From Pachysolen tannophilus NRRL Y-2460 (taxonomy: Eukaryota): DNA of 64,000 nt. This document shows positions 20,267-44,947 of this stretch, piece after piece. The position numbers were made by a program, and so were the translations under genes. Below the pieces are notes generated by a model, which made no database searches, was not told the origin of the DNA, and worked only from the letters and a program-made list of their open reading frames with translations. Location of the stretch: contig KV454014.1 in the NCBI GenBank assembly GCA_001661245.1, positions 1,084,892-1,148,891 on the forward strand, read 5' to 3'. Every line of letters starts with the position of its first letter. Positions within the stretch are counted from its first letter, which is position 1.

Positions 20267-21328
20267 TTATGACCAGTTGTTTGTTATATCAGCAACAACT
20301 TCATTTATGAAGAATTTGAAATGGCTCAACCTAGCCTTTGTGCAATAAGGACACATTACATGCTGACACCTTGAACAATCTGATCTCAAATAGGCATTAT
20401 TAAATTTTTTCAATTTTTGATTTATCATCTCGTTATCGCTACTATTGAGATTATAATCTTCGCAACATCCAATCCGATTTTCATTCTCGTTGACAACAAC
20501 GTCGACATCATTTTGGCGCAAAGAGTATGCGGAATAGTTGGAATTGGAATCGTAGGAGTCATTTCTACTACTCCCGCTTCCACTCCTGCTTCTACTTCTG
20601 CTTCTAGAACTACTACTATTTCCGTTTCTAGGCATTTGATGATCATTGTCTATTCTAAATAACTGATCAATGTACTCATTGCCATGTGCTTGCCCACACT
20701 GACAGCAATACCATTGTACTATTTTGTTCCAATCTACGTTTTGAATCCTTCCAGCCCTGGAATGAGGAAGCGGTGAATGCGTATGTGTATGTGTATGCGT
20801 ATGATTGATATTTGTGGTATAATGACTATTCGAGTTGTTGTTAGCAATGGAAGTGGATGATGTTGCTGAGCAAGGGCTTCTGCCGCGATTAAGTATAAAA
20901 GTGCCACCGGGGCCACCGTCACTACTACCGCCAATGTGACCGCTGGGGCAGCTTGGGCCGCTAGGGCCACTTGAGCCACTGGAGCCATTGGAGCCATTAG
21001 AGCCGTTGCCGCCAACCATGCAACTACTACCACCAATACTACCAATACTACCGCCACTGATGCCGCCAATTCCTCTGCTATTACTACCGCTTCTACTGCC
21101 ACCTCTTACACTTCTCACACCTCTGCCACCTCTGCCACCGCCCGTATGATTCTTGGGTACGCTACCACCAATGCTACTACTACTACCATGTTTATCGTAA
21201 TCATCCATTGATCGAGGCGAAATTATACTACAACTCGACGATATGGCACTGCCATCGGTACGTTCATGAGACATTTTGCTCCTTTTGCGCAGCTGCTGTT
21301 TTTCCTCGAATAAAGCTATACTATCCAT
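20267..21328 (-). CDS. Hypothetical Gly/Ser-rich protein with a split Cys/His cluster (putative zinc-binding)
   Basis: 353-codon ATG ORF; WYCCQCG and CSRCQHVMCPYC separated by low-complexity sequence. Confidence 0.7.
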   Translation of the reverse strand: MDSIALFEEKQQLRKRSKMSHERTDGSAISSSCSIISPRSMDDYDKHGSSSSIGGSVPKNHTGGGRGGRGVRSVRGGSRSGSNSRGIGGISGGSIGSIGGSSCMVGGNGSNGSNGSSGSSGPSGPSCPSGHIGGSSDGGPGGTFILNRGRSPCSATSSTSIANNNSNSHYTTNINHTHTHTHTHSPLPHSRAGRIQNVDWNKIVQWYCCQCGQAHGNEYIDQLFRIDNDHQMPRNGNSSSSRSRSRSRSGSGSSRNDSYDSNSNYSAYSLRQNDVDVVVNENENRIGCCEDYNLNSSDNEMINQKLKKFNNAYLRSDCSRCQHVMCPYCTKARLSHFKFFINEVVADITNNWS

Positions 21329-24647: not shown

Positions 24648-25928
24648 TTAAATCAAGGGAATCGGTTCTCTATGTGACCCATTATCATTTTGGGTTGGTT
24701 CATTTTGCGACACTACTTTCCCGATGGCGTTATCATGGACGGCTTTTTCCCAATCTTTCCAATCTTTCCAATTTTTCCAATCGGTATAATGATAACTAGT
24801 ATGTGTTGCAAAAGTTGATGGATCGTAAGGAGTAAGTTGCCAACCATTTCTTAACCTTTCAGGTAAATCTGGGTTTGAAGTAAAATATTTACCAAAGCCT
24901 ATTAACGTTTTATCGTTTAAATTAACATCGTTTTCAATAATCTTACTATTACCTTTTTTGTAATCTCTTAGGTACCCACCAGTTCTAATCACTGGACCTT
25001 TCCATATTTCTGAAATCCATTGATTGGGTTGTAACAATATAGCCTCATCTACTGAATGTTTAGGCTCAACTACAGAGACATAAGCTAATGGGAACCCTTT
25101 ATTAGCCCTTTGTTGCAATTCTGAAACTAAATATCCAATTCCAGCTATAGGATGTATGATTTCATTTTCACCTTTCATACCATCAAAAATACCCCAAGGT
25201 GAAATTCTAATAGCTAATTTTTTGGAATCTCCAATTTCTTTTATTAAAAGATCAATTATTTCCAAGATTAGTCTAGAACGATTTTCAATAGAACCTCCAT
25301 ATTTGTCAATTCTTTTATTACTTGAAGGTTGCAAAAATTGATCTAATAAATAACCATGAGCAGCATTTAACTCTATATAATCAAATTTTGCAACATTAAG
25401 GGCAATTTTAGCTGCTTCAACATACTGATTTTTAAAAATTTCAATTTGATCTAAAGTTAAAGATTTTAATTCATTTCCAGCTTCTTGTGCCAGTTTTTCT
25501 TGATCTTTACTGTGATAAACTACTGAAGGAGCAATTAAGGGTAATCCTAATCTTTTCAATTCTTGAAGATCGGCTAATCTTCCCATATTCCATAACTGAC
25601 ATGATACAAATGATCCATTTTGGTGAATCCTATCAGTAATTAATTTCCAAGCATTAGCCTGTTCAGTATTATATATACCAGCAACATACTTCAAGCCTGA
25701 AGCTTCTCTTGATATAAATGCACCTTCTCCAACAATTAGTCCACCATATTGTTGACTTCTTTGATGGTAATATTCTAACATTAAATCCGTTGGTATCCCA
25801 TCAATAGAGGCACGAAGTCTTGTAACTGGCGCATGTACAATTCTATTTTGTAAAAAATTACTACCAACTTGAATCGGCTTAAATAGATTCGTATTACGTA
25901 AAGTGTACTTACTATCTACCAATGTCAT
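24648..25928 (-). CDS. Old yellow enzyme family flavin oxidoreductase, divergent copy
   Basis: NLFKPIQVG, APVTR, AHGYLLDQF, YGGSIENR, RISP, SNPDL; tandem paralog of the next gene. Confidence 0.92.
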   Translation of the reverse strand: MTLVDSKYTLRNTNLFKPIQVGSNFLQNRIVHAPVTRLRASIDGIPTDLMLEYYHQRSQQYGGLIVGEGAFISREASGLKYVAGIYNTEQANAWKLITDRIHQNGSFVSCQLWNMGRLADLQELKRLGLPLIAPSVVYHSKDQEKLAQEAGNELKSLTLDQIEIFKNQYVEAAKIALNVAKFDYIELNAAHGYLLDQFLQPSSNKRIDKYGGSIENRSRLILEIIDLLIKEIGDSKKLAIRISPWGIFDGMKGENEIIHPIAGIGYLVSELQQRANKGFPLAYVSVVEPKHSVDEAILLQPNQWISEIWKGPVIRTGGYLRDYKKGNSKIIENDVNLNDKTLIGFGKYFTSNPDLPERLRNGWQLTPYDPSTFATHTSYHYTDWKNWKDWKDWEKAVHDNAIGKVVSQNEPTQNDNGSHREPIPLI

Positions 25929-26155
25929 TTTTTAATATCTATCAAATTGCTGAACTATAGATTGAATATATAAATTATTTGAATTAAATATTTAAATATT
26001 TATAAATATATATATATTTTTATGTATGTATGTATATAAGTATGTATGTATATATGTATAAAAGAATGGCTTCATATGCACCTCAGAGAAAAACAGTACC
26101 ATTAAACTTAAATATAAGAAAACCTAGAGTTGCCAGAGAGATTCCTAAAGTTTTT

Positions 26156-27409
26156 TTAAGCAGAAACCAATGCAACTGGCAACTTTTTTGATTCTTCATC
26201 TTCTGGTTTGGATTTATTTTCTTGACCATAAAATGTCCAATCACCATAATGATAATTAGTATGGGTATAAAATGTTGGTCTATCATATGGAGTCAATTCT
26301 AAACCATATTTCAATCTTTTAACCAAATCTGGGTTAGAAGTATAATATCTTGAAAATGCAATTAAAGTTCTATTATTCAGATTAACATCATTTCTAATCA
26401 ATTGATAATTATCTTCACGATCGGTTAAATATGCTCCGGCTCTAATGATATTACCTCTCCATATTTGATAAATCCATAAATTTGATTTCAATTGCTTATA
26501 ATCTTTTAAATTTTCAAGCGGAATTGTAAAACCGGCATTAACTCTTGGTTCTACAATAGAAATGTAAGCAAGTTCATTACCCTTATTTGCTCTTTGTTGT
26601 AATTCAGAAAGTAAATATCCAATTCCAACTATAGGATGAATAGATTCGTTTTCACCTTTCATTCCACCAAATTCTGCCCAAGGTGAAACTCTAATTCCTA
26701 TCTTATCAGCACCAATTTCTTTAATTAAAGAATCAATTATTTCTAAGACTAATCTTGCTCTATTTTCAATTGATCCACCATATTTATCAGTTCTATGATT
26801 AGTTGAAGGTTCCAAGAATTGATCCAAGAAATAACCATGAGCAGAATGAATTTCCACATAATCAAAATTTGATACATTAATAGCATATTTTGCAGCTTCA
26901 ATATACAGTTTTTTAAACTCTTCAATTTGCTTTAAAGTTAAAGCTTGTAATTCAACACCAGATTTACGAGCCAGGATCTCAGCATCTTCATTTGGATAAA
27001 CCACTGATGGTGCAACGTATGGAACTCCTCTTTCCTTCAATTCAAAAGGATCAGCAGCTCTACCCAAATTCCATAACTGACAAGAAACAAAAGTACCATG
27101 TTTATGAATCTTATCAGTTATTAACTTCCAAGCCTTTGCCTGTTGTAAAGTATAAATCCCAGGTGCACCAGAATAACCAGAAGCCTCTTTAGAAACAAAA
27201 GTTCCCTCAGTAATAATTAATCCACCATTATCCTTACTTCTATCCTCATAATACTTTAACATCAAATCAGAAGGAACATCGCCAGGTGCAGACCTACTTC
27301 TAGTACTTGGTGCAAACACAGCTCTATTTTTCAATTCCTTAGTCCCAAGTCTAATTGACTTGAACAAGTTTGTATCTTCAAGTGAGTATTTGGTCTTAAC
27401 AATTGACAT
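26156..27409 (-). CDS. Old yellow enzyme family NADPH dehydrogenase / ene-reductase
   Basis: APSTR, EIHSAHGYFLDQF, RTDKYGGSIENRAR, EPRV, SRYYTSNPDL, YDRPTFY; first ATG at 27409. Confidence 0.94.
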   Translation of the reverse strand: MSIVKTKYSLEDTNLFKSIRLGTKELKNRAVFAPSTRSRSAPGDVPSDLMLKYYEDRSKDNGGLIITEGTFVSKEASGYSGAPGIYTLQQAKAWKLITDKIHKHGTFVSCQLWNLGRAADPFELKERGVPYVAPSVVYPNEDAEILARKSGVELQALTLKQIEEFKKLYIEAAKYAINVSNFDYVEIHSAHGYFLDQFLEPSTNHRTDKYGGSIENRARLVLEIIDSLIKEIGADKIGIRVSPWAEFGGMKGENESIHPIVGIGYLLSELQQRANKGNELAYISIVEPRVNAGFTIPLENLKDYKQLKSNLWIYQIWRGNIIRAGAYLTDREDNYQLIRNDVNLNNRTLIAFSRYYTSNPDLVKRLKYGLELTPYDRPTFYTHTNYHYGDWTFYGQENKSKPEDEESKKLPVALVSA

Positions 27410-27726: not shown

Positions 27727-28506
27727 TAATTTCAACGTAACCAGGAACCCTAAATTTTGTATGATGCTACCACGTACAACATTAAAGATTTTATTTATAA
27801 AAAAAAAAATTGTAATTAACAAAAAGTTAGTAGAGAATTTAATTTAATTTTTATGTTTTAAATGACCAAACCCAACCCAAAAAAAAATGTACCAAAGTTT
27901 TACCTATGTTATGTATTTTATTTGTTAGTATTTAAAATCTTGTTTATTCTATTAAACCTTCTTCATCACATCACTACTGATAACCTGATTTTTTCTTTTT
28001 TCCTTTTTTTTTTTTCTTTTGCATTTTTTCGCTGCTAGGTTAATGCACTATTAAAGGTAGCCAGATTTATAGATAACGAAAAAATTAGAAAAATCACCAG
28101 ACTAAAAGATTATTACTTGAGGAAATATGAAGAGTGATTTGGAGAAAATATAGAAGAAGGGTTTATGGGCTGTTTGATTTTGTTGCAAGAATTAGAAGAG
28201 TATTGGATGACTTTTAATTAATTAATACTAGGTTGGTTGTGTATTTTTTTTTGGGTGCCGCCGACAAATATTCTTATGGAGGAGGCCAATATTTTTTGTG
28301 GTACTATTTATCATCCAGGGTGTGAGGTGATTTTTAGTAATACTTTCTTTTGTATTTGTAGACTGTAGACTTTGAACAATATAAATAGATCTTAATTCAC
28401 CTTTTGTAAAATTGTAATTTCATTATTGTAAAACATCAATTATAATTTCTAAAGAAATAAAATAAAAAAAATCAACTATTTTTCAATTACTACTAAAATT
28501 TCAATC

Positions 28507-28692
28507 ATGGCCGGTCTTATTAACGTACAAACCATTAAGAACGTTGCAATTTTCACTGCTGCTGTTGCTCCTCTTGCTGTAAGTGGTTTTATTGTAAGAC
28601 CAACATTTAAAGGTGTTATTACTTTAAAGACAAAGGAAGATGATACTTTAGACAAACAATTCTTGGAAGGTTACAGTAAAGGTGGTCTTTAA
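28507..28692 (+). CDS. 61-aa small hydrophobic protein, member 1 of the local family
   Basis: TATAAATA at 28380, A-rich leader, biased codons (GCT, GGT, GTT, TTC), one hydrophobic segment; aligns without gaps to the 29.0-29.5 kb gene. Confidence 0.8.
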   Translation: MAGLINVQTIKNVAIFTAAVAPLAVSGFIVRPTFKGVITLKTKEDDTLDKQFLEGYSKGGL

Positions 28693-29006
28693 AAGTAATA
28701 TACCAAAAATGGTAAAGCATATGATGATGATGATGATGATGATTTTTTGATGATGATGATTTTTTTTAACGAAGTTATGGATTTAATATTTATTTGTGTC
28801 TAGAGTTTTCGTTTATATATTTATTTAATAATAAAAATAATAATGTTAATTTTATTTATGTAAAAGTTATGATGATATGGATGCCATATTTAAATAAATA
28901 AAAAATAAATTAAAAGAAAAAAGAAACCCCTATCCGCTTTTTACCCCTAAATTACCAGCATTTGAGGTTTCAATATTTGAGGTTTTTTTTTTCTTTTTTT
29001 TCGAAA

Positions 29007-29453
29007 TTACCACTCATCAACTCTTTCAAAACAATTTCTTTCAATTTGTTCAACTCTTTGTTGGTTTTCAAGGGCACTTAACTTGGAAATATCTTCTTTG
29101 CCGCTATTGGCACCAATACCGAATAAAGGTTGAAGAGCTTTACCATTAGCATAATCATCTAGAAATTTTAAATGCCAATTCAATAAACTAAGACTATGCT
29201 TGATATCGTGTAAATCGTTTTGGTCTTGTTCTAATTTACCATTAACCACTCTTTCAAATCTAGGTCTTACTACAAAACTTGTAATAAGAAGTGGGGCCAT
29301 TAAGCCTCCAACAAAACCAAATGTTCTTAAGCTTTGGATTAAAAAATGTTAGTGGAAAGAAAACATGGTTAATATAGCTGATAAAAGCTAAATGTTGTTA
29401 AAATATACTCACTTTGGGTGACTAGCAAAATATTTTTGTAATACAAACAGCAT
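29007..29453 (-). CDS. 121-aa small membrane protein, member 2; exons 29453-29413 and 29331-29007
   Basis: ATG at 29453; removing the intron gives an in-frame join to the listed 97-aa ORF: M(A)FVLQKYFASHPNLRTFGFVGGLMAPLLITSFVVRPRF... Confidence 0.8.
29332..29412 (-). other. Spliceosomal intron, 81 nt, phase 2
   Basis: GTGAGT donor, CACTAAC branch point (29354-29348), AAG acceptor; splicing restores the reading frame. Confidence 0.75.
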
Positions 29454-30007
29454 ACTTATTTTCGTATCTTAAAATTAATTATTAATGATAATAATATTAA
29501 TAATAAATCAGATTTGCGATTCTATTTAAATAGTCAATTATAGTTCTTCTCCCCTTTTACTATTTGAATAAATTTAGTCTAAGGTCAGGTCAGGTTTTAA
29601 AAATTAAGCAACCAAATATTACAATCCTCAAAATTTATTGGACCTATTATGTTTCCAATGTTGTTTATCTTGCTAACTTACATAGTCATCGCTGATCTGC
29701 AAAAATGTATAGAAAATAAAAGAAAATGCATCTTTTCTTTTTCCCCACATTTTTCTTTAGTACCCAATTTTTATTTTTCAGCGGTATTACTCTCGCCGTA
29801 CGTTCAAATATTCATTCAAAACTTGATATTGATTCATAATATCAAAATTACTTTTTAATTCAATCAATGACAAATTGTCGTTACTCATTACTATAAATTA
29901 ATATATGACTCTATTAAAGAAAAGAAAATAAAAAGAAAATAATAAAAAAAAAGTGAAGTAAAGTAAAGTAAAGTAAAGCATATGGTTGCAAATTGTACAA
30001 TTTATTT

Positions 30008-32434
30008 TTATTTTTTTTTACCTAATCCAAACAATCTTAAAAACAGATTTGGCTCCTTTTTCTCTTTAGAACCATAACATTGACTTGAAGCACTTTTTGC
30101 AATGCTTTTGTCTCCACTGTTATTCTGAGACAATTTTCTCTTTAATTCTGCATTACTGTAACTCTTAGACTTGTACAAATTACTTGAATTCTCTGTGTTA
30201 CCAGAAATGGATGATCCAGTTGTAATATTTGAAATTGAGGGCCCCAACAAGGATTTGACTTTATAACAAGAAGTTCCATTGCCAAAATCATCAACATCTC
30301 CAAACGTTACTTTAGTAGACGTTGGATAAAACGATTGTGGTGTCTGTACACCTGAAGATATAGATGAACGAGTCGAAGCTTGATTATTTCTCTTAATGTC
30401 CTTAATTGAACTTTTGCGAGACCTATCTGATATGGAAATTAAAATCAGCGCAAATTGATCGTTTTTTATATGAAACTTGGTTTTATCATTTTCTTCTTGA
30501 TCTTCGTCTTCTGCCACAATTTTGGTAGCACTTGTTGATAAAGTACTATTTGTATACCTCTTTAAACCTAACAGTAAATCATCCTCTTCTAACAAGTCAT
30601 CATCATCACCATCATTATCGCTACTATCGTAATCATTATCATTATCATCATCATCATCATCAACAACAACATTATAACCATCAGAGACTCCATTTTCGTT
30701 TTGTTTTGACAGCTTTAAATAATCTTTATTCTTTCCACCTTCGTCATTTTGCTTAATGATTACCGGGATGTTTTGCTCAGGTAAGTTTTTTTGCAGCTGA
30801 ATCAGATTATCTTTTAACTCAAAATCTTTTCCGGTTGCTCTGATGTCTAATTTGAATTTATTTAATTCATTCAAATCAGCCGCTTCATTTGCTTCATTTG
30901 TCACTACAATGACAGGAACATGACTTTTTGACAAAATATAACTAGTTAATTTTACACATTTAACTCCATCAAGCTTATAAGAACCATTGTAACCTAATCC
31001 TAATGAAGAAACGGTTCTCGTCATACTTGAAGTACTACTTTTCCTCATATTTGGGAATGGATAAGCATTCAAAGTTTCACCTCCATAACTTGAACCTGAT
31101 GATTGACTAAACAACCTATTCATTTTATTTTCATAAATTTTACTGCCAATTACAATTAAACAAGGTTGGTATAGTTTGTAACAGCTTTTGAAAACCTGTT
31201 TTGAAGATTCACAATTAATAATCTCAGCGCTTATACGAATCTTCTTATCAGGATTATATCTAGAAAGTAAGGTAGTTGTATAATCCAAGATATTTTGACA
31301 TTTTTCATAAATTAATGTAGATGAAACATTATAAGTTTTGGAAGATTCAAAACCTTCAATATCGTACTCAATTTTCTTATGATGAATTATGTTTGTTTCA
31401 GATGGGTCTAGTTCCATTTCTTCGACCGGGATATGTGATGTAATAACTATGTGGTCACCATCTTGTACTAGATATCTAGTGATATAATCGATTGAATTCC
31501 AAGTGTGCTTCCTCCCTGTAATAACTGTTAGTATGGTTCTATATCCATTTTGCAGTTCGAGATCACTGTCATCCTGTAAATCACCCTTCTTTGTATAATT
31601 TTTGTGTTTTATAGTTAAGCAACAAGCTCCATAAGTTATTACTGGAGTTGTTGGATACATCTTGCTTGTTAAACTTTTAATTACCGTGCTTCTATCTCTA
31701 ATGGCTCCATTGCTACTATTATTAATATTATTAATATTATTGATATCATTGCTGTTATTAATATTGTGATTGCTACCACCACCATAATTACCCGCTATGC
31801 TGGGAACGGTCAGTGCTGATAATTGAGCACTTTCAGTCTTGAAATCAAAGCTATTCATATCTAATTTTGACTTTGAATGAGATTCGTAAAATTTTTCTAA
31901 TGCTAATAATTCTTCTATAGTCATATCTGCAAACGATTTTCTATGACGAGTTGGTTGTGATTGTTGTAGCAGCAGCAGCAGCAGCTGCTGCTGTTCCCCC
32001 AGAGAAGAAACAGGAGAGAACGATTCATCTGCAGTTCCGCTACCTAGCACCTGCTCCTGAGCCGGATCCACAGATTGATCCTGGTTCTGGTTCTGCTCCT
32101 GAACCTGAGCTAAATCCAGATCCAGATCCAGAGGTAACGACATTGAATACCTAATTTCATTATAATGGGGTTTTTTCAAAATCGATTTTTCCGGTGGTGG
32201 GGGCAACCTCCTAATTTTCCCTGAACCCTGATTAAACCAATGCGAATCTGACGATGAATAATGCTGTTCAATATTATTAATGTTACCGCCACCAAATCCA
32301 AAATTTAAATCTAGTTTTTTCTTCTTGCTAAAATTTGAATTATCCTTAAACTGCGGAGGCACATGTAACGGATTTGATGGATCGATATAAGTTGGTGATA
32401 TGTTATTAAAAGAAACCTGATGTGAATACGGCAT
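30008..32434 (-). CDS. Large low-complexity protein with a universal stress protein (Usp)-like domain
   Basis: Usp-like segments: TILTVITG...DYITRYLVQDGDHIVI, LYQPCLIVIGS, KLTSYILSKSHVPVIVV. First ATG at 32434. Confidence 0.7.
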   Translation of the reverse strand: MPYSHQVSFNNISPTYIDPSNPLHVPPQFKDNSNFSKKKKLDLNFGFGGGNINNIEQHYSSSDSHWFNQGSGKIRRLPPPPEKSILKKPHYNEIRYSMSLPLDLDLDLAQVQEQNQNQDQSVDPAQEQVLGSGTADESFSPVSSLGEQQQLLLLLLQQSQPTRHRKSFADMTIEELLALEKFYESHSKSKLDMNSFDFKTESAQLSALTVPSIAGNYGGGSNHNINNSNDINNINNINNSSNGAIRDRSTVIKSLTSKMYPTTPVITYGACCLTIKHKNYTKKGDLQDDSDLELQNGYRTILTVITGRKHTWNSIDYITRYLVQDGDHIVITSHIPVEEMELDPSETNIIHHKKIEYDIEGFESSKTYNVSSTLIYEKCQNILDYTTTLLSRYNPDKKIRISAEIINCESSKQVFKSCYKLYQPCLIVIGSKIYENKMNRLFSQSSGSSYGGETLNAYPFPNMRKSSTSSMTRTVSSLGLGYNGSYKLDGVKCVKLTSYILSKSHVPVIVVTNEANEAADLNELNKFKLDIRATGKDFELKDNLIQLQKNLPEQNIPVIIKQNDEGGKNKDYLKLSKQNENGVSDGYNVVVDDDDDDNDNDYDSSDNDGDDDDLLEEDDLLLGLKRYTNSTLSTSATKIVAEDEDQEENDKTKFHIKNDQFALILISISDRSRKSSIKDIKRNNQASTRSSISSGVQTPQSFYPTSTKVTFGDVDDFGNGTSCYKVKSLLGPSISNITTGSSISGNTENSSNLYKSKSYSNAELKRKLSQNNSGDKSIAKSASSQCYGSKEKKEPNLFLRLFGLGKKK

Positions 32435-33567
32435 ATCAATCTTTACCAAGTCAAGTTCTTTCTAAACCAGTGATGGATCAATATCAATAAACAAAATTGA
32501 AAAATATAAAAAAAATATCTTGTACCAAATATTGGGGTATTATTTATTTATCTCTTTATACGGAATGCACCTTAGTCAGATGACTTTCTTTGCTCTGCAT
32601 GAAACTAATAAAAAAGACAAAATATATATATAAAATTATAAAATTAACAACAATTCAATTCAATAAATTATAGCTCTTTAATATCACTTTCTTTTATTTC
32701 ATCTACTTTATCAATTAATTTGGGGAAAGTTATTTATAATTATAGATAAATTAATTTATAAAAAAATTGATGTTGTGGTATTAATTATCTGCAACTAATT
32801 TAGCGCCAAGCAATCTCATCGCTCTAATGAAAACTACATTTAAAACTCGTGGCTATAGCATCTTTTTGTCTTTTCATTTTAACAATTTTCTCAGTAATTA
32901 TAAAGATTGGAATCGGGATATACTTCACAAGATGAACACAAGGTTGTCCCCCACTTATTGATCGAGGTCCAGAGGTTCTAGGTATATCTTGAAATCAAGT
33001 TTCTTGTGTTTGGTAGTGTTCCGGTGGTGTATTGGGATTGATGCATGATCAACGTTTTGATCATTTCACATTTAATTATTTGATTTGTTTAAAAAGTACC
33101 ACGTTATTTCCTAGTTACAATTACTACAAAAGACACCATTACGAGAATATATAAAAAAAAATTAAGTTTTTTCATTTCAATAATACTTTATCTGAAAATA
33201 TATATATATATTAAATATATATATATATATCGGTTTTTACTTGCTAAGTTATAAGTTGGCACTTCTTGTTTCCGGAATGTACGTAGACGTGCACATTTTA
33301 ATTGCTGTAAAATTCTTTTATTGTTATAGGTTTTTGGTTTATAATTGCTGATTGGATACAAGGTCCGCTACGGTAATTTTCCTAGAAAAGATCTTCTTCT
33401 TTCTTTTCCCTTCCTCGACCGAGACATGGATTTTGCTTTCAGACATGGCAAGTAAAAAACCTTACACTCATTAAGTGATTTTGTAAAGTTATAAATATGT
33501 TATTGTAGAATTTAACAAGTGATTGGATAAAGTAGAATTAAAGAGCAAAAAAAAAAAGAAAAAGAAA

Positions 33568-34410
33568 ATGTCTTCTTTTGTACGTTATCTCAATTCGCAT
33601 CTTGGGTAAGTTTGAAATTGAAAAGAAGTAAAGTATACTGAAAATAAGTTAATGTTCTTTTTTTAGTTTTTTTTTTGTTCTTTTCTTTGCTAACAATATC
33701 TTAGAGTTAAAGTGTTTGTCTACCTTGGAGCAGCTAGTTTACCAATTTATTGGGCTAGTAGAAATATCAGTCCAAACTATGGTAAATTGATTGATTTCAA
33801 ATTACGAGAAGAAGCAGTGCATAACGCAGAGGAGAAAGTTCAAACTTCTGAAGGATTTCGTCAGAGGTTATTGAGAAATTTTCAAGGTGATAATGCAAAA
33901 GTAATTGGTAGAGATGAATTGGAAAAGGCAAAAACTTCTCTGAAAGATTCAGAGCCAAAACCAGCAGAGTCACTGGAGCCTGCTGAGGCCAAGTCTGCCG
34001 AGGAGAAGCCTGCAGAGGACAAATCTTTCGCCGCCGAATCCAAGCAGGAGACACCACTGAAAGAGGCGGAAGACTCTGCTGAAGCACCAGCTGAAAAGGC
34101 AACGGAATCCAAAGAATCAGCTGTGCAACCAACTAAAGAGGATTCAACTCAACAGGTTTCTGAGAAAAGTTCAGAACAAGGTGATTCCTCTTCAGCTGCT
34201 GATACTGAAAAGGAGACGGCTCCTTCACAGAGAGGAGAAATAGATGCAGATAAGGACGGTGCTCCAATTCCTAAATACAACGAGGAAGCTGATGCCCATG
34301 TAGGAAGTTCTGGAAGTGAAAGAACTAATGTCGTAAAAGGCTCTTCTGAAGATGAATACGATACAGACTCTACAAAAGTTGTTAAAGAACCAGTCAAGGC
34401 AAACTCATAA
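33568..34410 (+). CDS. 247-aa protein, member 3, with N-terminal membrane segment and acidic A/E/K/P/S tail; exons 33568-33605 and 33705-34410
   Basis: ATG at 33568 after TATAAATA (33490); splicing joins in frame to the listed GTG-start ORF: MSSFVRYLNSHLGVKVFVYLGAASLPIYWAS... Confidence 0.85.
33606..33704 (+). other. Spliceosomal intron, 99 nt, phase 2
   Basis: GTAAGT donor, T-rich tract, GCTAAC branch point (33689-33694), TAG acceptor; splicing restores the frame. Confidence 0.85.
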
Positions 34411-34800
34411 GAAGCTAAAACTGTTCTAATAAATTAAAAGGTTTTTTTTTTTATTATTAATTCTATTTTTTTTTTTAACTCTTACTTTTAGCTAACCAAG
34501 TAAATATATATATAGAAACTATGTATATACTACCAAGAAAAATGGAGGTTTCAATTTGAGATCTTTTAAATAAAAAGATGTTAATTACTTCTTAAAAAGT
34601 AAGTCTAGCAAGTTCAATATATTAAAAGTAAGGATCTAAAAAGGGTTCAACCTTGTTGTATTAATCTCTATCTGCAAGCAAGATGTACAAATTTGCTGCT
34701 TTTTTTTTTGGTATGCCGAACAATATTTTGACTAGGTTATTAAATCATATTATTATTATTTTTTTTTCCAATTTAAATAAAGAATAAAAAGAATAAAAAG

Positions 34801-36977: not shown

Positions 36978-38825
36978 TTAATGAGTTTCGATACCGCTTA
37001 ACCAACCTTTGGCCTTTTCGACTGCTCTTTCCCATAAGACCCAAGCGACTCTTCTTTGGTCATCGGATAAGGTAGCATGGAAATCATTGTCGACTTGGCT
37101 ACCATCTTTCTTTGTAACTAATAATTTGTTACCTTTAGAAATCTGAGTAACTGCATCATCCAATGATGTCCAAAGACCAGAACAAATACCAGCAGCAATG
37201 GCAGCACCTAAAGCTGTACATTCTGCATTTGGTGATCTTCTAACGGTGACACATGGACCCAAAATATCAGACTGGATTTGCATGACCTCATCAGATTTAG
37301 ACATACCACCATCAACAGCCAAGATAGATAATGGAGTCTGGCCTGTAATCTTTGATGATTCATCTAAGAAATCAGCTGAAGCACCAGCATCGTTAATCAT
37401 AGCCTTTAAAATGGCTCTAGTTTGGAAACAGACACCTTCTAAAGCAGCTCTGGCGATATGAGAAGCTGAGGTGTATTGTGTCAAACCTAAAATAGTACCT
37501 CTGGATTCAGAATCCCAGTATGGGGCAAATAATCCACTGAAGGCTGGAACAAAGACAACACCACCAGAGTTATCAACTTCTGAAGCTAAAGGACCAACAT
37601 CTTGTGCCTTACTGATTAATCTCAAGTTATCTCTTAACCATTGGACACATGAACCGGCAACAGCAATGGAACCTTCCAAGGCAAATTGAGGTTTAGAAGA
37701 ATTCTTACCATCAACTTTTTCATCTAATTCTGGGAACCAATAACCAAAAGTGGTAACAGCACCATGACGAGAGATCAATTTTTGATCACCGGTATTATAC
37801 AACAAGAAAGCACCAGTACCGTAAGTACATTTAGCAGAACCTTTTCTAACTGCCAATTGACCAACCAAAGAAGCAGATTGATCACCTAAACAACCACAAA
37901 TTGGAAGGCCTTTAACAGATTCCAATTTTTCTGCAGCTTCTTTACTTAAACCTAAATCAGTGTAACCCAAGGAAGTTAAATCTGGAAGAGCAAAATGACC
38001 ATAAACTTCTGATGAAGAAAGAATCTTTGGCAATTGGATCTTCTTTCTGTCAATATTCCAGAATTTTAACAATTCGTCATCGTAATCAATGGTTTCCAAG
38101 TTCATATAAGCAGTTCTAGATGCATTTGTAACATCAGTAACAAAAGCTTTTGAAGAAGTAATGTTGTAGATCAACCATGTGTCAAGAGTACCAAACATCA
38201 AATCACCATTACCATTTTCATAAGCATCTTTAACTTCTGGAACATTTTCAAGCAACCATTGGAATTTAGTTGCAGAGAAATATGTAGAGATTGGTAAACC
38301 GTTTATTTGTCTTAAAGATTCCAATTTTTCAGCAGGGTACTGCAGATTAATTCTCTTAACGATAGCTGATGTTCTAGTATCACTCCAGACAATACCGTTA
38401 TATAAAGCCTTACCAGTTTTTTGAGACCAAACAATTGTAGTTTCTCTCATATTAGCAACACCAATAGAAGTAACCTTATATGGAACATCACGAGTAATGT
38501 TAATTTTTTCTAAAGAGATTAAACAAGCAGCAAAACATTGAATTGCATTAGCCAAAATACTTTCAACACGACATTCTACCCAACCGGCTTTTGGAAAATT
38601 TAAAGTAGGTTCTTCCGAAACTTCCACTTGTAAATCATCAGAGACTGTAATTGCAATACCTTCACTAGATATAATTTGAGGTGAATCTTTTCTCGACCCA
38701 ACTTGAGCAGAAGTTGAATATTCAACTTGATGTTTGGCAACTTCTTGGCCTAATTTGTTAAAAAGAATGGCTCTTGTAGAAGTAGTACCAAGATCTATTG
38801 AAGCAACTAAAGGTTCAAACGACAT
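36978..38825 (-). CDS. GUT1: Glycerol kinase
   Basis: IDLGTTSTR, ANMRETT, TDVTNASRT, LGDQSA, KCTYGTGAF, VPAFSGLFAPYW, VDGGM. Confidence 0.96.
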   Translation of the reverse strand: MSFEPLVASIDLGTTSTRAILFNKLGQEVAKHQVEYSTSAQVGSRKDSPQIISSEGIAITVSDDLQVEVSEEPTLNFPKAGWVECRVESILANAIQCFAACLISLEKINITRDVPYKVTSIGVANMRETTIVWSQKTGKALYNGIVWSDTRTSAIVKRINLQYPAEKLESLRQINGLPISTYFSATKFQWLLENVPEVKDAYENGNGDLMFGTLDTWLIYNITSSKAFVTDVTNASRTAYMNLETIDYDDELLKFWNIDRKKIQLPKILSSSEVYGHFALPDLTSLGYTDLGLSKEAAEKLESVKGLPICGCLGDQSASLVGQLAVRKGSAKCTYGTGAFLLYNTGDQKLISRHGAVTTFGYWFPELDEKVDGKNSSKPQFALEGSIAVAGSCVQWLRDNLRLISKAQDVGPLASEVDNSGGVVFVPAFSGLFAPYWDSESRGTILGLTQYTSASHIARAALEGVCFQTRAILKAMINDAGASADFLDESSKITGQTPLSILAVDGGMSKSDEVMQIQSDILGPCVTVRRSPNAECTALGAAIAAGICSGLWTSLDDAVTQISKGNKLLVTKKDGSQVDNDFHATLSDDQRRVAWVLWERAVEKAKGWLSGIETH

Positions 38826-41800
38826 AATTGAATAAATATATATATAGATAAGTAAAATTTAGTGATTTAATACTTGAGTACTATTTAATAGCTAGTAAGT
38901 GAAAAAAATAGCAATTAAATTAGACGTAAATGAAAAACTAAAATTTATAATATGGATGGAAAAAAAATAGCAAAAAAAAAGATAATTGGATTTATAAAAG
39001 AAACGGAATAACTTTTGGAAAAATTTATTATAAAAGAAACTGGATTCCTTTTATAATTTTTTTCATACTTCTGGCGTAAATCCCCCCAATAAAAATTGTT
39101 GTTGAATTGAAAGTTTCATCATTTATAATACCCCAGTAAAAAATACCTTTACGCGGGGAAAATTTTTCTTTTCTTTTTTAGGAACAGCAATAATGGAATA
39201 ATATTTTCCCGGGGAAACTTCGGAATGCACATTCTGAATCCAAAAAATAAACAAAAATAATGATAATAATAATAATAATAAGCTTAGACAAAAAAAAAAA
39301 AGAAAAAAATCTTTGTGGTTAAAAGATTAATACCGATAAAATTTTTTCCGTAATTTCCACAAGAATCGATGGCCGGAAGATTGTAAATACTTTTATGATT
39401 TGGTCATAAGCCTTTCTAGACGTTGTTGGTACAAGCAGATACAATTGTTCCGACAATACTGAATGAATGCTTTGAGACCTGTGTTTATTTGATCTTATAA
39501 AATTGTTCCATATTCGGTTTTCAAGTTTTATTATCCATTTATTTTCGAATTTCGCCCTAAATTATTCCGAAAGTGAAATAAGTAATAACTTTTGTTCAGC
39601 CTTCTAAATTTCAGATTACTGAAATTTTAAAAAAATTTTTGCTGGAAATTTTTGGGGATTCTGAAAAACCGATCACGAAAATCAAAGGCATTTCCGGTTA
39701 ATAAAACCTTAAATTTATACAAAACTACGTAATTTTAACTTTTGAACCCCATAAAAATTAATTGAACTTACATAAAAATTTTAAGATCGAATTAGAATTT
39801 TTTTTCTAAGTTTTTTTGTAAATAAACTATAAATTGGAATGCGGGAAAAAGGTTGAGTTGAGGGTTGAAAGTTGGATTGTTTTGTTGTCCTTTATGTGTC
39901 ATTTATTCTTTTACCATATTCAGTGTTTCTACTATAGAGAGAGAGAGAGAGAGAGAACAAGATAGGAAAAATAAAAAAAGCAGAATATGTTTATTCTGGT
40001 TTGCCGGAAGAATTAACCCACAAATTAAAGTAAACCGCAAAAAGGTAAATCCTGATCTCAACTATTATAGTTGTGTAATGACGTTTCACTACCCCATTTT
40101 ATGATTCTTTTAACCTTCATATCTGATTGAGTTTCGAGGCTCGGTTTTAGATTTTTAAATTGTCCATAAGTCCATAACCACTTAATATCATTTACACTAT
40201 AAGTAAAGTAATATATATTAATATTTACTTGAAAGATTGAACGTTCGGAATTATTCATTTTCGATCTCGGACATTGACAAGAAAATTATAATGTAATAAA
40301 GACACAGTTGTCTAAAATTACTGATGAAAAATAACTTTTATATTTTTTTTTTTTTTTTTTTAAAGAAAATCTTTTTTCATAGAATCTCTGCGCTTGAAAA
40401 AAAAAACTCCGAAGAAGCCTTACTGTAAACGCAACTTGGGGATAATAAAGTATCGAAAATTTGGATCATGTTCTTTATTGTTTAGATACTTAACCGTATA
40501 TGTAGGATGATTTAAGGAAAAATAGCTTTTCCATCCTGAGATAATTGTTGACAAAACCGTTGAAGAGTTATTCCGTGGTAAGAACTTCGCAAATACAAAA
40601 AATTCTTGTGATGGGCAAGAACGAAAAAGAAAAAAAAAAAAAAAAGAAATTGACCGTTTAAATTTTTATAGTTATTAATTTCGTATATAACGGACTTGAA
40701 AATGATATTACAGAGAAGTATTTGCCAAAGCCAATTGAAAAGTGTTAAAATAAAACAAAGCTAAGAATGCCTCCACCTGAACCCACTCGTAAGATATTGA
40801 CAACTGCAATGTTTTCAAATGGCGAATTAATTAATATTCTTATTCTGTTGGGACTAATAACAAAAGGGAAATAAAAACTTTTTATCTCTGTTCGCCTAAA
40901 ATTATTACTTGAGCATAGTATTACATCTTATAATTATAATAGCTCCGCGAGCCCGCCGATAGTGTGAATTTTATTAGATTTTTAAATGAAAAAATTAAAT
41001 CATTTTTGTAAATACAACAACAAACAGACAAAAGAAAAAAAAAAAAAAGGGGCAACACGGCAGACCTCGCGCGTATTAACTATTTGGCCCCATTCCTGTA
41101 GGATCAATTAATTTGCGGAGATGTTGTAGTATCCATCCAGGAATAAAGTAAAAATTATTGTTTACATGCTAACTTTACGGGGTATATTATTACATTCCTT
41201 AAATTAATCAATTAATTAGTTATTATTAAGGGAACTTTAAATCTCCAATCTCCTTAAGTTTTATTAATAAGAATAAATTATTAAAATTCCAAATCGTATT
41301 TGTTGTTGAGAAAACCTATTATTCTGAAATTTTCTGTTGCCTTTTCATGTTCAATCTCCAAGCTTATCAACTCCTGGAATAACTTAAAAGATAAACGGAG
41401 TTTTAGTAAAATTGGTCCGAACAATATCAATGCATTTTAACTTTGCAAATCCTTGAGCCGGGATAATTGTTTCCCCGCAAATTACAATCTTGGTTTTTGT
41501 AAATTTTATAGTCACAAGTCGGAATAATTTGTTTTTCCTTTCAAATGAATCCATGTTTCCAGAAAAAGGGTTTATTAGTTACTGTCTACTTAGATAACTT
41601 GCCCAATCATTGCATAATAACAATAATAAGATGCTATTCTTCACCAAGTCATTAGTTAATTATAATACAAAAAATGACTCTAAACTTTTCTGTTTGTTTT
41701 TTTTTTTTTTTTTTTTATTTTGTTTTTTGTATGGTTAATTTTGTAGTGATAAAAAAAAGCAGCAATTTTTTTTTCTTTTTCTTTTTGTTTTCTCTTTTTC

Positions 41801-41891
41801 TTAACTTTGGCGTAATAAAATGCATTAATTTCAAAAAAATGAAAAAAAGGACAAGAATTTCTTTCCCCGTACGCTTCTCACAGAAAAAGAG

Positions 41892-41927
<36 letters not shown>

Positions 41928-41937
41928 AAAATTTTTT

Positions 41938-42362
41938 NNNNNNNNNNNNNNNNNNNNNNNNNNNNNNNNNNNNNNNNNNNNNNNNNNNNNNNNNNNNNNN
42001 NNNNNNNNNNNNNNNNNNNNNNNNNNNNNNNNNNNNNNNNNNNNNNNNNNNNNNNNNNNNNNNNNNNNNNNNNNNNNNNNNNNNNNNNNNNNNNNNNNNN
42101 NNNNNNNNNNNNNNNNNNNNNNNNNNNNNNNNNNNNNNNNNNNNNNNNNNNNNNNNNNNNNNNNNNNNNNNNNNNNNNNNNNNNNNNNNNNNNNNNNNNN
42201 NNNNNNNNNNNNNNNNNNNNNNNNNNNNNNNNNNNNNNNNNNNNNNNNNNNNNNNNNNNNNNNNNNNNNNNNNNNNNNNNNNNNNNNNNNNNNNNNNNNN
42301 NNNNNNNNNNNNNNNNNNNNNNNNNNNNNNNNNNNNNNNNNNNNNNNNNNNNNNNNNNNNNN
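41938..42362. other. Assembly gap (425 N) flanked by poly-A/T runs
   Basis: Run of N characters. Confidence 1.
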
Positions 42363-42400
<38 letters not shown>

Positions 42401-42838
42401 AAAACAAACTTTAAAATTTCTTCAGAACAATAAAACTGGTTATTGTATAGTGAAAATCGACCACGCTTTTTTGCAAATACTTTGTTTTTTCTGCATAAAA
42501 TTGCATGAAAATGAAAGAAAAAAAATTTTCTTTTTCGTTTTCACTTAGAAGTTCTTTCGGGGTTCGAAATTTCATACCATAATGTGCCTCTTCCCCCAGT
42601 TTTCAGAGGATTATCTTCGGATCTTCCATTCTGACTCTTGATCTAAGTGTCCGAAAAATAATTTATCTATTTAAGGAGGAGAAAATCCGTTTGAGTAGTT
42701 TTCAAATTTATTTTAGTCAATCATACAATTCAATCAAGATTAACATTAATAAACATAAAAAACATATTTATATATATATATTTATATAAACAAGACAGAT
42801 CATATTTTCAAATATAAGTTAACGCATTTGCTGTTATC

Positions 42839-43828
42839 ATGAGCAAGTCAGAAACGATGCAAATAGAGAATGTTCAAGGATCGAGTACTTCTTCCAATGA
42901 GTTATTGGCGCCTGATAAAATTATTATAGAAGAAGATGAGATTATTGATGTACCACAATTCAACAATGTTTGGGAAAGGATTCGTCATGAATATAGAGCA
43001 TATTTTGCTGAATTTTTAGGGACTTTAATCCTTGTTGCCTTTGGTGATGGTGTTGTTGCACAAAAGAAATTATCCGGTGGGGCAGCAGGTTCATATACAA
43101 ATGTGTCTATGAGTTGGGGTTTTGCTGTTATGATGGGTTTTTTAGTTTCTGGTGGTATTAGTGGTGGACACATGAACCCGGCAGTTACTCTTGTTGCTGC
43201 TGCATTTAGAGGCTTTTCATGGAGGAAAGTTCCTGGTTATATTTTTTCTCAATTATTGGGTGGTCTTATTGGTGCTTATGTTGTTTATGGTACTTATTAT
43301 CAATCATTTGATGATTATGAAGGTGTTGGAATTAGAACTGTCACTGGTGACACTGCCACCGCCGGTATTTTTTGTACTTTCCCAGCAGGTGACTACTTGA
43401 CTACAAGAGGTCAAGTTTTATCTGAATTTGTTTCTTCTGTATTATTGGAAATTGGTATATTTGCATTATCAGATGCATGTAATGTTGAATCTGCAAAACA
43501 TTGGTTTCCAATTGGTTTATTTTTTTTAATTTACGGAATTGGTGCATGTTTTGGTTATCAAACAGGATATGCTATAAATATGGCAAGAGATTTTGCTCCA
43601 AGAGTTGCTGCAACATCGGTTGGTTATGGTAGAGAAATGTGGACTGCAGGTAATGGATACGCATGGGTTCCAGTGGTAATGCCTATAATAGGTTGTTTTA
43701 CAGGAGCCATTATTTATGATCTGTTCATCTACCAGGGCCAAGACTCTCCATTAAACAAGCCTTACTTTGGATTCGGTAGATTCTTTGGAAAAGGGAGACA
43801 AACAAAAGACGTAGAAAATCAATACTAA
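42839..43828 (+). CDS. Aquaglyceroporin / glycerol facilitator (MIP family)
   Basis: AEFLGT, SGGHMNPAVT, TAGIFCTFP, TGYAINMARDFAPR. Alternative start ATG at 42857. Confidence 0.93.
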   Translation: MSKSETMQIENVQGSSTSSNELLAPDKIIIEEDEIIDVPQFNNVWERIRHEYRAYFAEFLGTLILVAFGDGVVAQKKLSGGAAGSYTNVSMSWGFAVMMGFLVSGGISGGHMNPAVTLVAAAFRGFSWRKVPGYIFSQLLGGLIGAYVVYGTYYQSFDDYEGVGIRTVTGDTATAGIFCTFPAGDYLTTRGQVLSEFVSSVLLEIGIFALSDACNVESAKHWFPIGLFFLIYGIGACFGYQTGYAINMARDFAPRVAATSVGYGREMWTAGNGYAWVPVVMPIIGCFTGAIIYDLFIYQGQDSPLNKPYFGFGRFFGKGRQTKDVENQY

Positions 43829-44316
43829 TAATAATAATAATAATAATAATAATATTGATAATAAAAAAAAAAAAAAATTTCCAATTTTTTTTTATGTTTT
43901 TTTTTTTGCTGTTTCATTTTTTACTTGTTACGATAGCGCTTTTATATTTTGGCATATTTATTTTTTTATTTTATTTTATTTTTTTTGCGGGCTTTTTTTA
44001 TTTTAAAAAATTTATTTTATTTTTATTTTTATTTTTTATTTTGTAATCTTTTTTTTTTTCACTTTGATCTTGATTGATCCAGATGTATATTCTTAAGTTT
44101 CAATAATGTACAGTTATGACTATTATATTTAAAAAAAAAAAATTATTATTATTGTAACTAAAAAAAAACATTTCGCTATATTTAATTTTAATTTTTAGCG
44201 CCGAAGTGACCTGATGTTTCTTTGATCGCCGCTGATGAGAAGGTGGTGTCACAAAAGAAAGAAAATAGAAAAAAGACAAAAGAAAAAAGACAAAAGACGA
44301 AAAGAAAAGAGAAAAA

Positions 44317-44726
44317 GATAAAAGAGTCATCTGTCATCTATCACTCTGTCACTCCGTAACTTGTGCTAGCTCTAGATGAATGAACACTGAACATTGGTAG
44401 TGTCACTGGTAGTGGCACCAACAGTGACACAAACAGTGACAAGACACAGACACAAACATTAGCTTTAGCATAGGCACTGTCACCAGCCCCTTTTTCCTTT
44501 TCTGTTGCTTTTTGACTCTATTAATTAATACCGCTAATCCATTAATTCTTCTGCCTTTTCCTTTTTTTTCTTTTTTTTTTTCTCTCAAAGACAAAAAGGG
44601 CACAATTATGCATTCTTCTCTATTGTGAAAAACGCCCACAAACCAAAAACACAAATAAATGTACTAAATGCATGCTTACATAAGTGCTTAATAACTACAA
44701 TCAAGAATTGCTGATTGGACGATAAC
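44317..44726. promoter_or_regulatory. Gcn4-type (TGACTC) and GATA-type (GATAA) sites upstream of GLN1
   Basis: GAGTCA 44324-44329, TGACTC 44513-44518, GATAA at 44317 and 44721; consistent with known GLN1 regulation in yeasts. Confidence 0.45.

Positions 44727-44915: not shown

Positions 44916-44947
<32 letters not shown>

What the first reader, a model, noticed from the sequence alone, without database searches (positions are those of the whole stretch)
28507..34410. Clustered three-member family of small membrane proteins sharing an intron position
Seen: after splicing, the three products align without internal gaps. A (28507+): TIKNVAIFTAAVAPLAVSGFIVRPTFKGVITLK. B (29453-): KYFASHPNLRTFGFVGGLMAPLLITSFVVRPRFERVVNGKLEQD. 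C (33568+): RYLNSHLGVKVFVYLGAASLPIYWASRNISPNYGKLIDFKLREE. They share one hydrophobic segment, then P-x9-P-x-[FY]-x2-[VL][VI]-x2-K. A and B also share a later motif (QFLEGYSKG / KFLDDYANG; RLLRNFQG in C). B and C have a phase-2 intron in the same codon (SHP-N / SHL-G), which independently supports common ancestry; A is intronless. Lengths are 61, 121 and 247 aa, and each has a TATA-like element. Inference: an old, locally expanded family of organellar (perhaps mitochondrial) single-pass proteins with different C-terminal tails. I do not recognise the family, and the ORF track hides it.
Basis: partly seen in the sequence, partly recalled or inferred. Interest (0 to 1): 0.8.

Follow-up and report, generated by a model that had tools for sequence, protein, structure and literature searches.

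The report
Three-gene yeast membrane microprotein family
Three neighbouring genes of the yeast Pachysolen tannophilus, one of them apparently never annotated, encode related small membrane-anchored proteins that match no named family and most likely sit in mitochondria, but their job is inferred from sequence features only.

Summary
The observation largely holds. The window is Pachysolen tannophilus (CUG = Ala). NCBI holds spliced C letter for letter (ODV95575.1). A is also in NCBI; B was not found. No RNA run was available, so splicing is not shown by reads.

A and B are firmly related. C is more distant: A-C is not significant pairwise, but hhalign gives P = 1.9e-4 and 14 of 14 cross-type scores beat 24,387 background windows.

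A search of 1.84 billion proteins found only three outside relatives, one per type, so the triplication is older than this species. Pfam, NCBIfam, PDB and the ESM Atlas name nothing. ATP19, Qcr10 and Tom5 have their own genes elsewhere and do not match significantly.

Best reading: a lineage-restricted family of N-anchored single-pass proteins, probably mitochondrial accessory or adaptor subunits, with one shared anchor module and different tails. Location and function are inferred. It is an unnamed family of a known kind: interest 0.35, not 0.8.

The parts
28507..28692 (+). Gene A, intronless CDS, 61 aa (stop included)
   Evidence: Exact protein in NCBI/UniRef. Relative P0003 is 62% identical.
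28540..28596 (+). A: predicted transmembrane segment, residues 12-30
   Evidence: Best 19-residue Kyte-Doolittle mean 1.96; C-terminal flank net +3. AlphaFold2 gives one helix 7-57, mean pLDDT 66.
29413..29453 (-). Gene B exon 1 (41 nt; codon 2 is CTG, Ala in table 26)
   Evidence: Needed because the conserved codons upstream of the first exon-2 ATG have no in-frame start. Raises the B-C score from 43 to 59.
29332..29412 (-). Gene B intron, 81 nt, phase 2, GTGAGT...ACTAAC...AAG
   Evidence: First AG after the branch point; a second AAG 6 nt further on is also in frame (119 aa). Not shown by RNA.
29007..29331 (-). Gene B exon 2 (to the stop); apparently unannotated gene
   Evidence: Relative P0005: 21 of 62 identical, E 2e-16. 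B was not returned by profile searches that contained it; exon-2 and internal-ATG forms are not in the collection.
29268..29324 (-). B: predicted transmembrane segment, residues 17-35
   Evidence: Kyte-Doolittle mean 1.87; C-terminal flank net +3.
33568..33605 (+). Gene C exon 1 (38 nt)
   Evidence: matches the N-terminus of ODV95575.1.
33606..33704 (+). Gene C intron, 99 nt, phase 2, GTAAGT...GCTAAC...TAG
   Evidence: The public gene model has the same junction. Not shown by RNA here.
33705..34410 (+). Gene C exon 2 (to the stop); PACTADRAFT_34138, 247 aa in all
   Evidence: Relative P0004, E 2e-19, 20 of 36 identical in the core.
33706..33756 (+). C: weakly hydrophobic segment, residues 14-30, aligned with the segments of A and B
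   Evidence: Best Kyte-Doolittle mean 1.37 (residues 12-30), the lowest of the six members.
33922..34407 (+). C: acidic low-complexity tail (E/A/S/K-rich, net -19), predicted disordered
   Evidence: No secondary structure after residue 72, low pLDDT. Similar tail in P0004 (net -17).
28380..28387 (+). TATA-like element of A
   Evidence: Seen in the sequence; not above chance.
29525..29532 (-). TATA-like element of B
   Evidence: not above chance.
33490..33497 (+). TATA-like element of C
   Evidence: not above chance.
28256..28264 (-). URS1-like site upstream of A (one base off the recalled Ume6 consensus); function not supported
   Evidence: Genome-wide 32 sites against 42 for the reversed control.
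30008..32434 (-). Unrelated 808-aa ORF lying between B and C (context, not a member)
   Evidence: No Pfam or NCBIfam family at cut-off; no family core in it.

Best explanation
A, B and C are three expressed paralogues of a lineage-restricted family that arose by local duplication and inversion before Pachysolen split from at least one other yeast.

All share a module of about 45 residues: a short N-terminus without acidic residues, one moderately hydrophobic helix with an invariant proline, a second invariant proline at the membrane exit, and a basic amphipathic helix ending in K-x-x-[ED]-[DE].

The module most likely works as an uncleaved signal anchor that targets the proteins after translation to a mitochondrial membrane, N-terminus out and the basic flank and tail towards cytosol or matrix. 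There the proline-bent helix and the P-x-F...K stretch pack against a partner membrane protein, as accessory subunits of respiratory or import complexes do. The tails give each paralogue its own role: almost none in A, an extra helix in B, a long acidic disordered arm in C.

Shown: gene structures, homology, presence of all three types outside this genome. Inferred: expression of B, membrane insertion, mitochondrial location (about 0.5), accessory or adaptor role.
For: Homology: searches (A finds B in the 12.6-Mb genome, E 0.012; hhalign P 1.9e-4), 53, and 99 (14 of 14 cross-type scores above 24,387 background windows; the reciprocal HMMs rank family members above all 1,274 window segments).

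Conservation: one relative per type. P0004 and P0005 have the same longest contig, 13,953 nt, which suggests they are linked too.

Targeting features: hydrophobicity 1.37-1.96 in six members, against 1.44 and 1.56 for this genome's ATP19 and Qcr10 and 2.33-2.67 for two multi-pass transporters; C-flank net +2 to +4 in 6 of 6. No acidic residue before the segment and a small residue 2 in 5 of 5 members with a credible start.

Literature: moderate hydrophobicity directs signal-anchored proteins to mitochondria (PMC4010795, passages); secretory N-termini are biased against processing (PMC3104963, abstract); prolines are a sorting determinant in inner-membrane segments (PMC2171449, abstract); 40% of de novo and 20% of divergent novel yeast proteins are predicted mitochondrial (bioRxiv 10.64898/2026.08.29.748005, passages).
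Against: No localisation, expression or interaction data were obtained. The hydrophobicity test does not separate well: the secretory-pathway anchor of the neighbouring CPS1-like protein scores 1.65, inside the family's range, and the cited review itself calls 'moderate hydrophobicity' too ambiguous. The same preprint finds 30% of shuffled de novo proteins predicted mitochondrial. Codon bias does not mark the genes as abundant subunits (0.56, 0.51, 0.46 against 0.71 for ATP19, though Qcr10 scores 0.46). A-C is not significant as a pair, and the A+B HMM finds C only at E 0.24. The relatives were found with a profile holding all three window proteins, which favours family-like hits.
Confidence: 0.42

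Rival explanations
1. Same family, but anchored in the ER, peroxisomal or lipid-droplet membrane (N-out, C-cytosol), acting there as small adaptors or regulators.
For: The same topology signals (N-terminal anchor, basic C-flank) occur in such proteins (own knowledge). The family's hydrophobicity overlaps that of a secretory-pathway anchor in the window.
Against: Small residue 2 in 5 of 5 credible starts goes against signal-sequence-like N-termini (weak, as many proteins have this). The hydrophobic stretch of about 19 residues is short for a lipid-droplet hairpin (own knowledge).
Confidence: 0.22
2. The cluster is a set of sporulation- or ascus-specific membrane proteins, which would explain clustering, fast divergence and narrow distribution.
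For: A has a URS1-like site at -250 (0.06 expected per 600 nt) and an MSE-like site at -213; B has an MSE-like site at -65. Codon bias is modest.
Against: Sixteen motifs were scanned in three promoters, so some hits are expected. The URS1-like 9-mer is not enriched in the genome (32 against 42 control). Of 30 loci fetched, 20 were coding, and by eye none of the other nine intergenic sites precedes a recognisable meiotic gene. C has neither site.
Confidence: 0.12
3. The family is an offshoot of a known small mitochondrial protein (Qcr10 the best lead; ATP19, Tom5, Spg1 others), duplicated and diverged beyond recognition.
For: hhalign places this genome's Qcr10 in the same P-x-F-x6-K register, 5 of 11 identical to A. 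Most short orphan families could be old genes that have diverged.
Against: P = 0.12-0.15 for Qcr10, 0.19-0.27 for ATP19, 0.15 for a 26-residue Tom5 piece. True ATP19 (two genes), Qcr10 and Tom5 matches lie elsewhere in the genome. No Pfam model at cut-off for any of six members. Spg1 could not be tested.
Confidence: 0.14
4. A and B are a duplicated pair; C is unrelated and resembles them only through generic helix-proline-basic composition, with the intron match a coincidence.
For: BLASTP finds nothing between C types and A/B types. A-C shuffle test 590 of 5000. The branch to the C pair is 2.05 changes per column. hhalign probability only 38-48%.
Against: Cross-type scores exceed all 2,291 hydrophobic background windows by a wide margin. 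Two prolines, the lysine and a later leucine are invariant in 6 of 6. The intron has the same phase in the same codon, with the register set by exon 2 alone. The genes lie within 6 kb.
Confidence: 0.07

Closest known systems
Lineage-restricted single-pass mitochondrial microproteins as a class (e.g. Cox26, Mco6 in yeast; BRAWNIN, PIGBOS1, mitoregulin in mammals, as named in bioRxiv 10.64898/2026.08.29.748005)
   Same: Size, one membrane helix near the N-terminus, narrow distribution, no known domain.
   Different: No sequence match (PIGBOS1 model finds nothing in this genome). Here three old paralogues are clustered and carry very different tails, one of 160 acidic residues.
Qcr10, subunit 10 of cytochrome bc1 (Pfam PF09796)
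   Same: Single helix followed by P-x-F-x6-K in the same register.
   Different: Match not significant (P 0.12-0.15). The C-terminal part seen in this genome's Qcr10 (KIP...G...P-D-P-E-D) is absent, and the family's mid-helix proline has no counterpart. The true gene is on contig C3.
ATP19 / subunit k of ATP synthase (Pfam PF11022)
   Same: Small single-pass protein, early intron, acidic-then-aromatic motif near the C-terminus.
   Different: hhalign P 0.19-0.27. The intron is phase 0 in both genomic ATP19-family genes against phase 2 here.
Signal-anchored mitochondrial outer-membrane proteins (Tom20 type)
   Same: Uncleaved N-terminal anchor of moderate hydrophobicity with a basic C-terminal flank.
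   Different: No folded receptor domain; no sequence or fold match.

Membership tests
One family (A, B, C homologous) | Significant sequence similarity between A and B types | tested here: met
   BLASTP E 1e-7 and 3e-10; genome-wide E 0.012-0.013; 0 of 5000 shuffles.
One family (A, B, C homologous) | Significant similarity of the C type to the A/B types | tested here: met
   hhalign P 1.9e-4; 8 of 8 or more cross scores involving C types above background, one only narrowly, 20.0 against 19.0. Single-pair BLASTP fails.
One family (A, B, C homologous) | Shared intron actually spliced | tested here: inconclusive
   Same codon and phase in B and C; public model agrees for C; no RNA run held.
Qcr10 (PF09796) | Match to the family model at its cut-off | tested here: not met
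   The model finds only the gene on C3; no Pfam hit for six members.
Qcr10 (PF09796) | Remote profile similarity | tested here: inconclusive
   Right register but P 0.12-0.15 against a single sequence.
ATP19 (PF11022) | Match to the model; shared intron phase | tested here: not met
   Four matches, all on C2 and C3; phase-0 introns; P 0.19-0.27.
Tom5 (PF10642) | Match to the model; C-terminal (tail) anchor | tested here: not met
   Matches only on C1; P 0.15; the anchor here is N-terminal.
NDUFA4/B12D (PF06522) and PIGBOS1 (PF23670) | Match to the model | tested here: not met
   No candidate in the genome's first look and no hit in member scans. These filters drop weak matches, so remote kinship is not excluded.
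Spg1 (S. cerevisiae YGR236C; resemblance recalled) | Sequence similarity or shared gene order | not testable with these tools
   No tool returned an Spg1 sequence; the paper search and one passage gave no usable detail.
Mitochondrial signal-anchored or inner-membrane microprotein | One N-terminal moderately hydrophobic segment with a basic C-flank | tested here: met
   6 of 6 members; the feature is not specific to mitochondria.
Mitochondrial signal-anchored or inner-membrane microprotein | Mitochondrial location and binding to a complex | not testable with these tools
   Needs fractionation, microscopy or complexome profiling.
Any solved fold | Structural match above generic helices | tested here: inconclusive
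   Single-helix, low-confidence models; best Z 5.8 among many tied helices.

The most novel reading that the evidence does not exclude
A membrane microprotein born de novo in an ancestor of the CUG-Ala yeasts triplicated in place, and the three products now form or regulate a mitochondrial membrane complex that exists only in this lineage: A as minimal anchor, B as helical connector, C supplying a long acidic arm. It would be a natural case of one new microprotein growing into a multi-subunit module.
Probability: 0.1. Interest if true: 0.7.

Novelty: new member of a known kind. Interest (0 to 1): 0.35.

Why it matters
If confirmed, it adds one unannotated gene (B) and one unnamed protein family to a xylose- and glycerol-fermenting yeast. 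It also offers a compact test case for an open question: what the many lineage-restricted, predicted-mitochondrial small proteins of yeasts do, and how they gain new tails after duplication. All three types were kept in at least one other assembly, which argues for separate functions. It does not change any general view unless the proteins prove to build a lineage-specific complex.

Tried and rejected
Expression: no RNA holder listed. Four runs of one sample were laid; they cover introns and intergenic DNA as genomic contigs and show no joint at either intron. This is no evidence on splicing.

Complex prediction of A, C(1-82) and B exon 2(1-70): no verdict, score 0.00 in two runs, alignments not used.

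Homologue searches: A alone, 1 of 1 candidates, itself. Six-sequence profile: 3 of 238 candidates at 33-142 aa and 2 of the 8,000 scored at 143-2,000 aa, all already known. Metagenome contigs: 0 of 59 and 0 of 598 pattern matches confirmed. ESM Atlas: best feature score 0.80 for A, below its bar; nothing for C 1-82.

Libraries: Pfam and NCBIfam, nothing near a cut-off; PDB sequences, best E 0.055 and 0.04, unrelated soluble proteins; Foldseek, no match at E 0.001; wide structural search, only generic helices; Rfam, only the tRNA.

More members: none in 380,982 frame positions of the window and 43 held loci; single-protein searches of the genome return only A, B or C. These searches score few candidates, so a distant fourth copy elsewhere is not excluded.

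Gene order: in Komagataella phaffii the genes next to GUT1 on this side are a PRP38-family gene, SMD1 and TSC13, and CPS1, OYE and TRZ1 lie elsewhere, so there is no synteny lead.

Promoter motifs: TATA not above chance; URS1 not supported. A bacterial promoter scan and a repeat search were of no use.

Earlier findings of this scan: nothing by sequence, place or relatives; eight word hits, all unrelated.

Peptide tables of the Pachysolen proteome paper and the lists of Alaninales-specific orthogroups could not be read.
Full report
VERDICT. The three genes are real and related, form a family that no library searched here names, and each has a counterpart outside this genome. Their location and function are inferred only. 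The best reading is a lineage-restricted family of N-anchored single-pass proteins, probably mitochondrial accessory or adaptor subunits.

ORGANISM AND CONTEXT. The window is G000:C4:1084892-1148891 of a 12.6-Mb genome in 197 contigs. The database entry identical to spliced C is named Pachysolen tannophilus NRRL Y-2460 and has Ala at all three CTG codons, so table 26 applies. The order is: two old-yellow-enzyme genes, tRNA-Arg, A (+), B (-), an unrelated 808-aa ORF (-), C (+), an M20 peptidase (CPS1-like), glycerol kinase. Four DNA runs of one sample reproduce the coding regions; the few letter differences lie inside C's intron.

GENE MODELS. A is 28507-28692, intronless, 61 aa, and is in NCBI/UniRef. 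B is 29453-29413 plus 29331-29007 on the minus strand, 121 aa. C is 33568-33605 plus 33705-34410, 247 aa. Both introns have donor, branch and acceptor signals and in-frame stops. These signals alone prove nothing: a loose pattern gives 10 hits in the window and 14.7 on average in 50 shuffles. Better evidence exists. The public model of C uses the same junction; whether it rests on transcripts is unknown. For B, the codons upstream of the first exon-2 ATG are conserved in the relative P0005 and have no in-frame start, so an upstream exon is needed. Exon 1 also raises the B-C score from 43 to 59. B was returned by neither profile search that contained it, and two partial forms are absent from the collection, so it seems unannotated. 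No RNA run was held.

ARE THEY ONE FAMILY? A-B is firm: BLASTP E 1e-7, 0 of 5000 shuffles, and A finds B as its only other match in the genome, E 0.012. C is distant. Against it: A-C scores 30, reached by 590 of 5000 shuffles; BLASTP finds nothing useful in four cross comparisons; the two-sequence A+B profile ranks C third among the other window segments, E 2.8. For it: spliced B-C scores 59, 0 of 5000. With relatives added, hhalign gives P 1.9e-4 over 60 columns, probability 48%. The four-sequence A/B HMM ranks P0004 (E 0.0025) and C (E 0.24) above all unrelated segments, and the C-type HMM ranks P0003 (E 0.0077), A and B likewise, in a library of 1,278. Ungapped 36-column scores trained on other types put 14 of 14 test sequences above 24,387 background windows, one only narrowly. 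I put C's membership at about 0.9.

THE INTRON ARGUMENT. Both introns are phase 2 in the codon before the first aligned exon-2 residue, and exon 2 alone sets that register. P0004's first 38 residues look like a read-through intron: Met-Cys at the start would fit the ATG inside a GTATGT donor, Thr-Asn a branch site, and Thr-Ser an acceptor in the same phase. This is inference, as its DNA could not be fetched, and BLAST offers a gapped coding alignment of the same stretch. P0005 has Met at that codon, so it probably lacks the intron there. The simplest history is an ancestral intron lost in the A type and in one B lineage.

DISTRIBUTION. HMMER over 1,835,955,588 representatives returned 5 proteins at E up to 0.001: A, C and three unnamed Logan proteins. 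P0003 is A-like (62%), P0005 B-like (21 of 62) and P0004 C-like, with its own acidic tail; each finds its type first in this genome. P0004 and P0005 share a longest contig of 13,953 nt (14 and 13 contigs); P0003 has 7 contigs, longest 15,710, and may come from another source. Within-type core identity is 22, 13 and 20 of 36 and between-type 6-12, so the duplications predate the split; the tree supports only C against the rest. A six-sequence profile found nothing further among 5.8 billion proteins. I assume the sources are related yeasts; the order Alaninales holds Pachysolen, Peterozyma and Nakazawaea (PMC11182611, passages; PMC5951914, passages). The range is a lower bound: short intron-bearing genes are often missing from such collections, as B is.

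ANATOMY. Four columns are invariant in 6 of 6: a proline inside the hydrophobic stretch, a proline ten residues later, a lysine nine after that, and a later leucine. The best 19-residue hydropathy is 1.37-1.96 and the next 12 residues carry net +2 to +4. The 11 residues after the second proline are amphipathic in 5 of 6 (moment 0.98-1.61; 0.22 in P0005). N-termini are 11-16 residues, free of acidic residues, with Ala, Ser or Thr at position 2 in the five members with a credible start; B fits only under table 26 or 12. The later motif needs a 13-residue gap in the A type. AlphaFold2 gives A one long helix (pLDDT 66, pTM 0.28) and C three helices to residue 72 followed by disorder (pLDDT 50); both models are weak.

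HOW IT PROBABLY WORKS. Step 1, inferred: the hydrophobic stretch crosses a membrane once, with the basic flank inside (positive-inside rule, own knowledge). Step 2, inferred at about 0.5: the membrane is mitochondrial. Moderate hydrophobicity sends signal-anchored proteins to mitochondria rather than the ER (PMC4010795, passages), secretory N-termini avoid processing (PMC3104963, abstract), and novel yeast proteins are often predicted mitochondrial, 40% of de novo and 20% of divergent ones (bioRxiv 10.64898/2026.08.29.748005, passages). None of this is specific: the CPS1-like anchor scores 1.65 and 30% of shuffled de novo proteins get the same prediction. Outer versus inner membrane is open; prolines in inner-membrane segments favour transfer to the matrix (PMC2171449, abstract). 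Step 3, inferred: with no catalytic domain and conservation confined to the helix and its exit, the module binds another membrane protein, and the tails tune each paralogue. Codon bias neither supports nor excludes high abundance.

RIVALS. ER, peroxisome or lipid-droplet anchor (0.22). Diverged offshoot of a known small subunit (0.14): Qcr10 aligns in the P-x-F-x6-K register but at P 0.12-0.15, ATP19 and Tom5 do not match, and all three have their own loci. Sporulation genes (0.12): A has URS1-like and MSE-like sites (consensi recalled), but the URS1-like word is not enriched, 32 against 42, and does not precede recognisable meiotic genes in the 30 of 32 loci fetched (judged by eye). C unrelated (0.07).

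WHAT IS KNOWN. No Pfam, NCBIfam, PDB, Foldseek or ESM Atlas match. I found no paper on these genes: 'PACTADRAFT' occurs in one paper, on cytochromes P450 (listing only), and searches showed none (listings only). The library lacks most subscription journals. Unseen supplements may bear on this: the peptide tables of PMC4937558 (passages read; supplement not held) and the 23 Alaninales-specific orthogroups of PMC11182611. For PMC4580311 I saw supplement rows, for PMC3737163 one passage, for PMC5951914 also the supplement list.

SCORE. An unnamed family of a familiar kind; the same preprint counts more than 11,000 novel genes across 332 yeasts. The less usual points are the old three-way cluster, the retention of all three types elsewhere, and the unannotated member. 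Interest 0.35.

Noticed in passing
window 30008-32434 (-): 808-aa ORF between B and C with 17 CTG codons and no Pfam, NCBIfam or PDB match. Its middle looks by eye like a degenerate universal-stress-protein domain (recalled, not confirmed). The exact sequence is not in the protein collection.
   Followed up: partly
L042:1352-1575 (G000:C1, about 257,290-257,510): The Tom5 match is in two halves on opposite strands facing each other across a long A/T run: the N-half on minus, the membrane half on plus followed by a GTAAGT donor. Misassembly or a local inversion.
   Followed up: partly
L005 (G000:C2, about 1,186,500-1,186,850) and L006 (G000:C3, about 47,580-47,910): Two ATP19-family genes, both with a phase-0 intron at the same place; the second seems to have a further intron and may be a subunit-l-like paralogue (label recalled).
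   Followed up: partly
window 24648-27409 (-): Two tandem old-yellow-enzyme (Oxidored_FMN) genes directly beside the cluster, so local duplication has happened twice in this region.
   Followed up: no
window 28245-28272 and 34700-34727: A 28-nt element, 71% identical, lies upstream of A and upstream of the CPS1-like gene; it includes the GCCGA core of the URS1-like site.
   Followed up: no
window 29320-29332 (-): B has a second in-frame AAG acceptor 6 nt downstream of the first, which would give a 119-aa isoform.
   Followed up: no
window 36978-46273: Glycerol kinase, an aquaglyceroporin-like gene (by eye) and glutamine synthetase (by eye) lie in a row, with a 425-nt N gap at 41938-42362 that creates a false 246-aa ORF.
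   Followed up: no
window 20267-21328 (-): 353-aa low-complexity ORF with four C-x2-C pairs, probably a zinc-binding domain, without a Pfam match at cut-off.
   Followed up: no
G000, whole genome: The NDUFA4/B12D and PIGBOS1 models found no candidate in this genome; this may reflect introns or the loose first look rather than absence.
   Followed up: no
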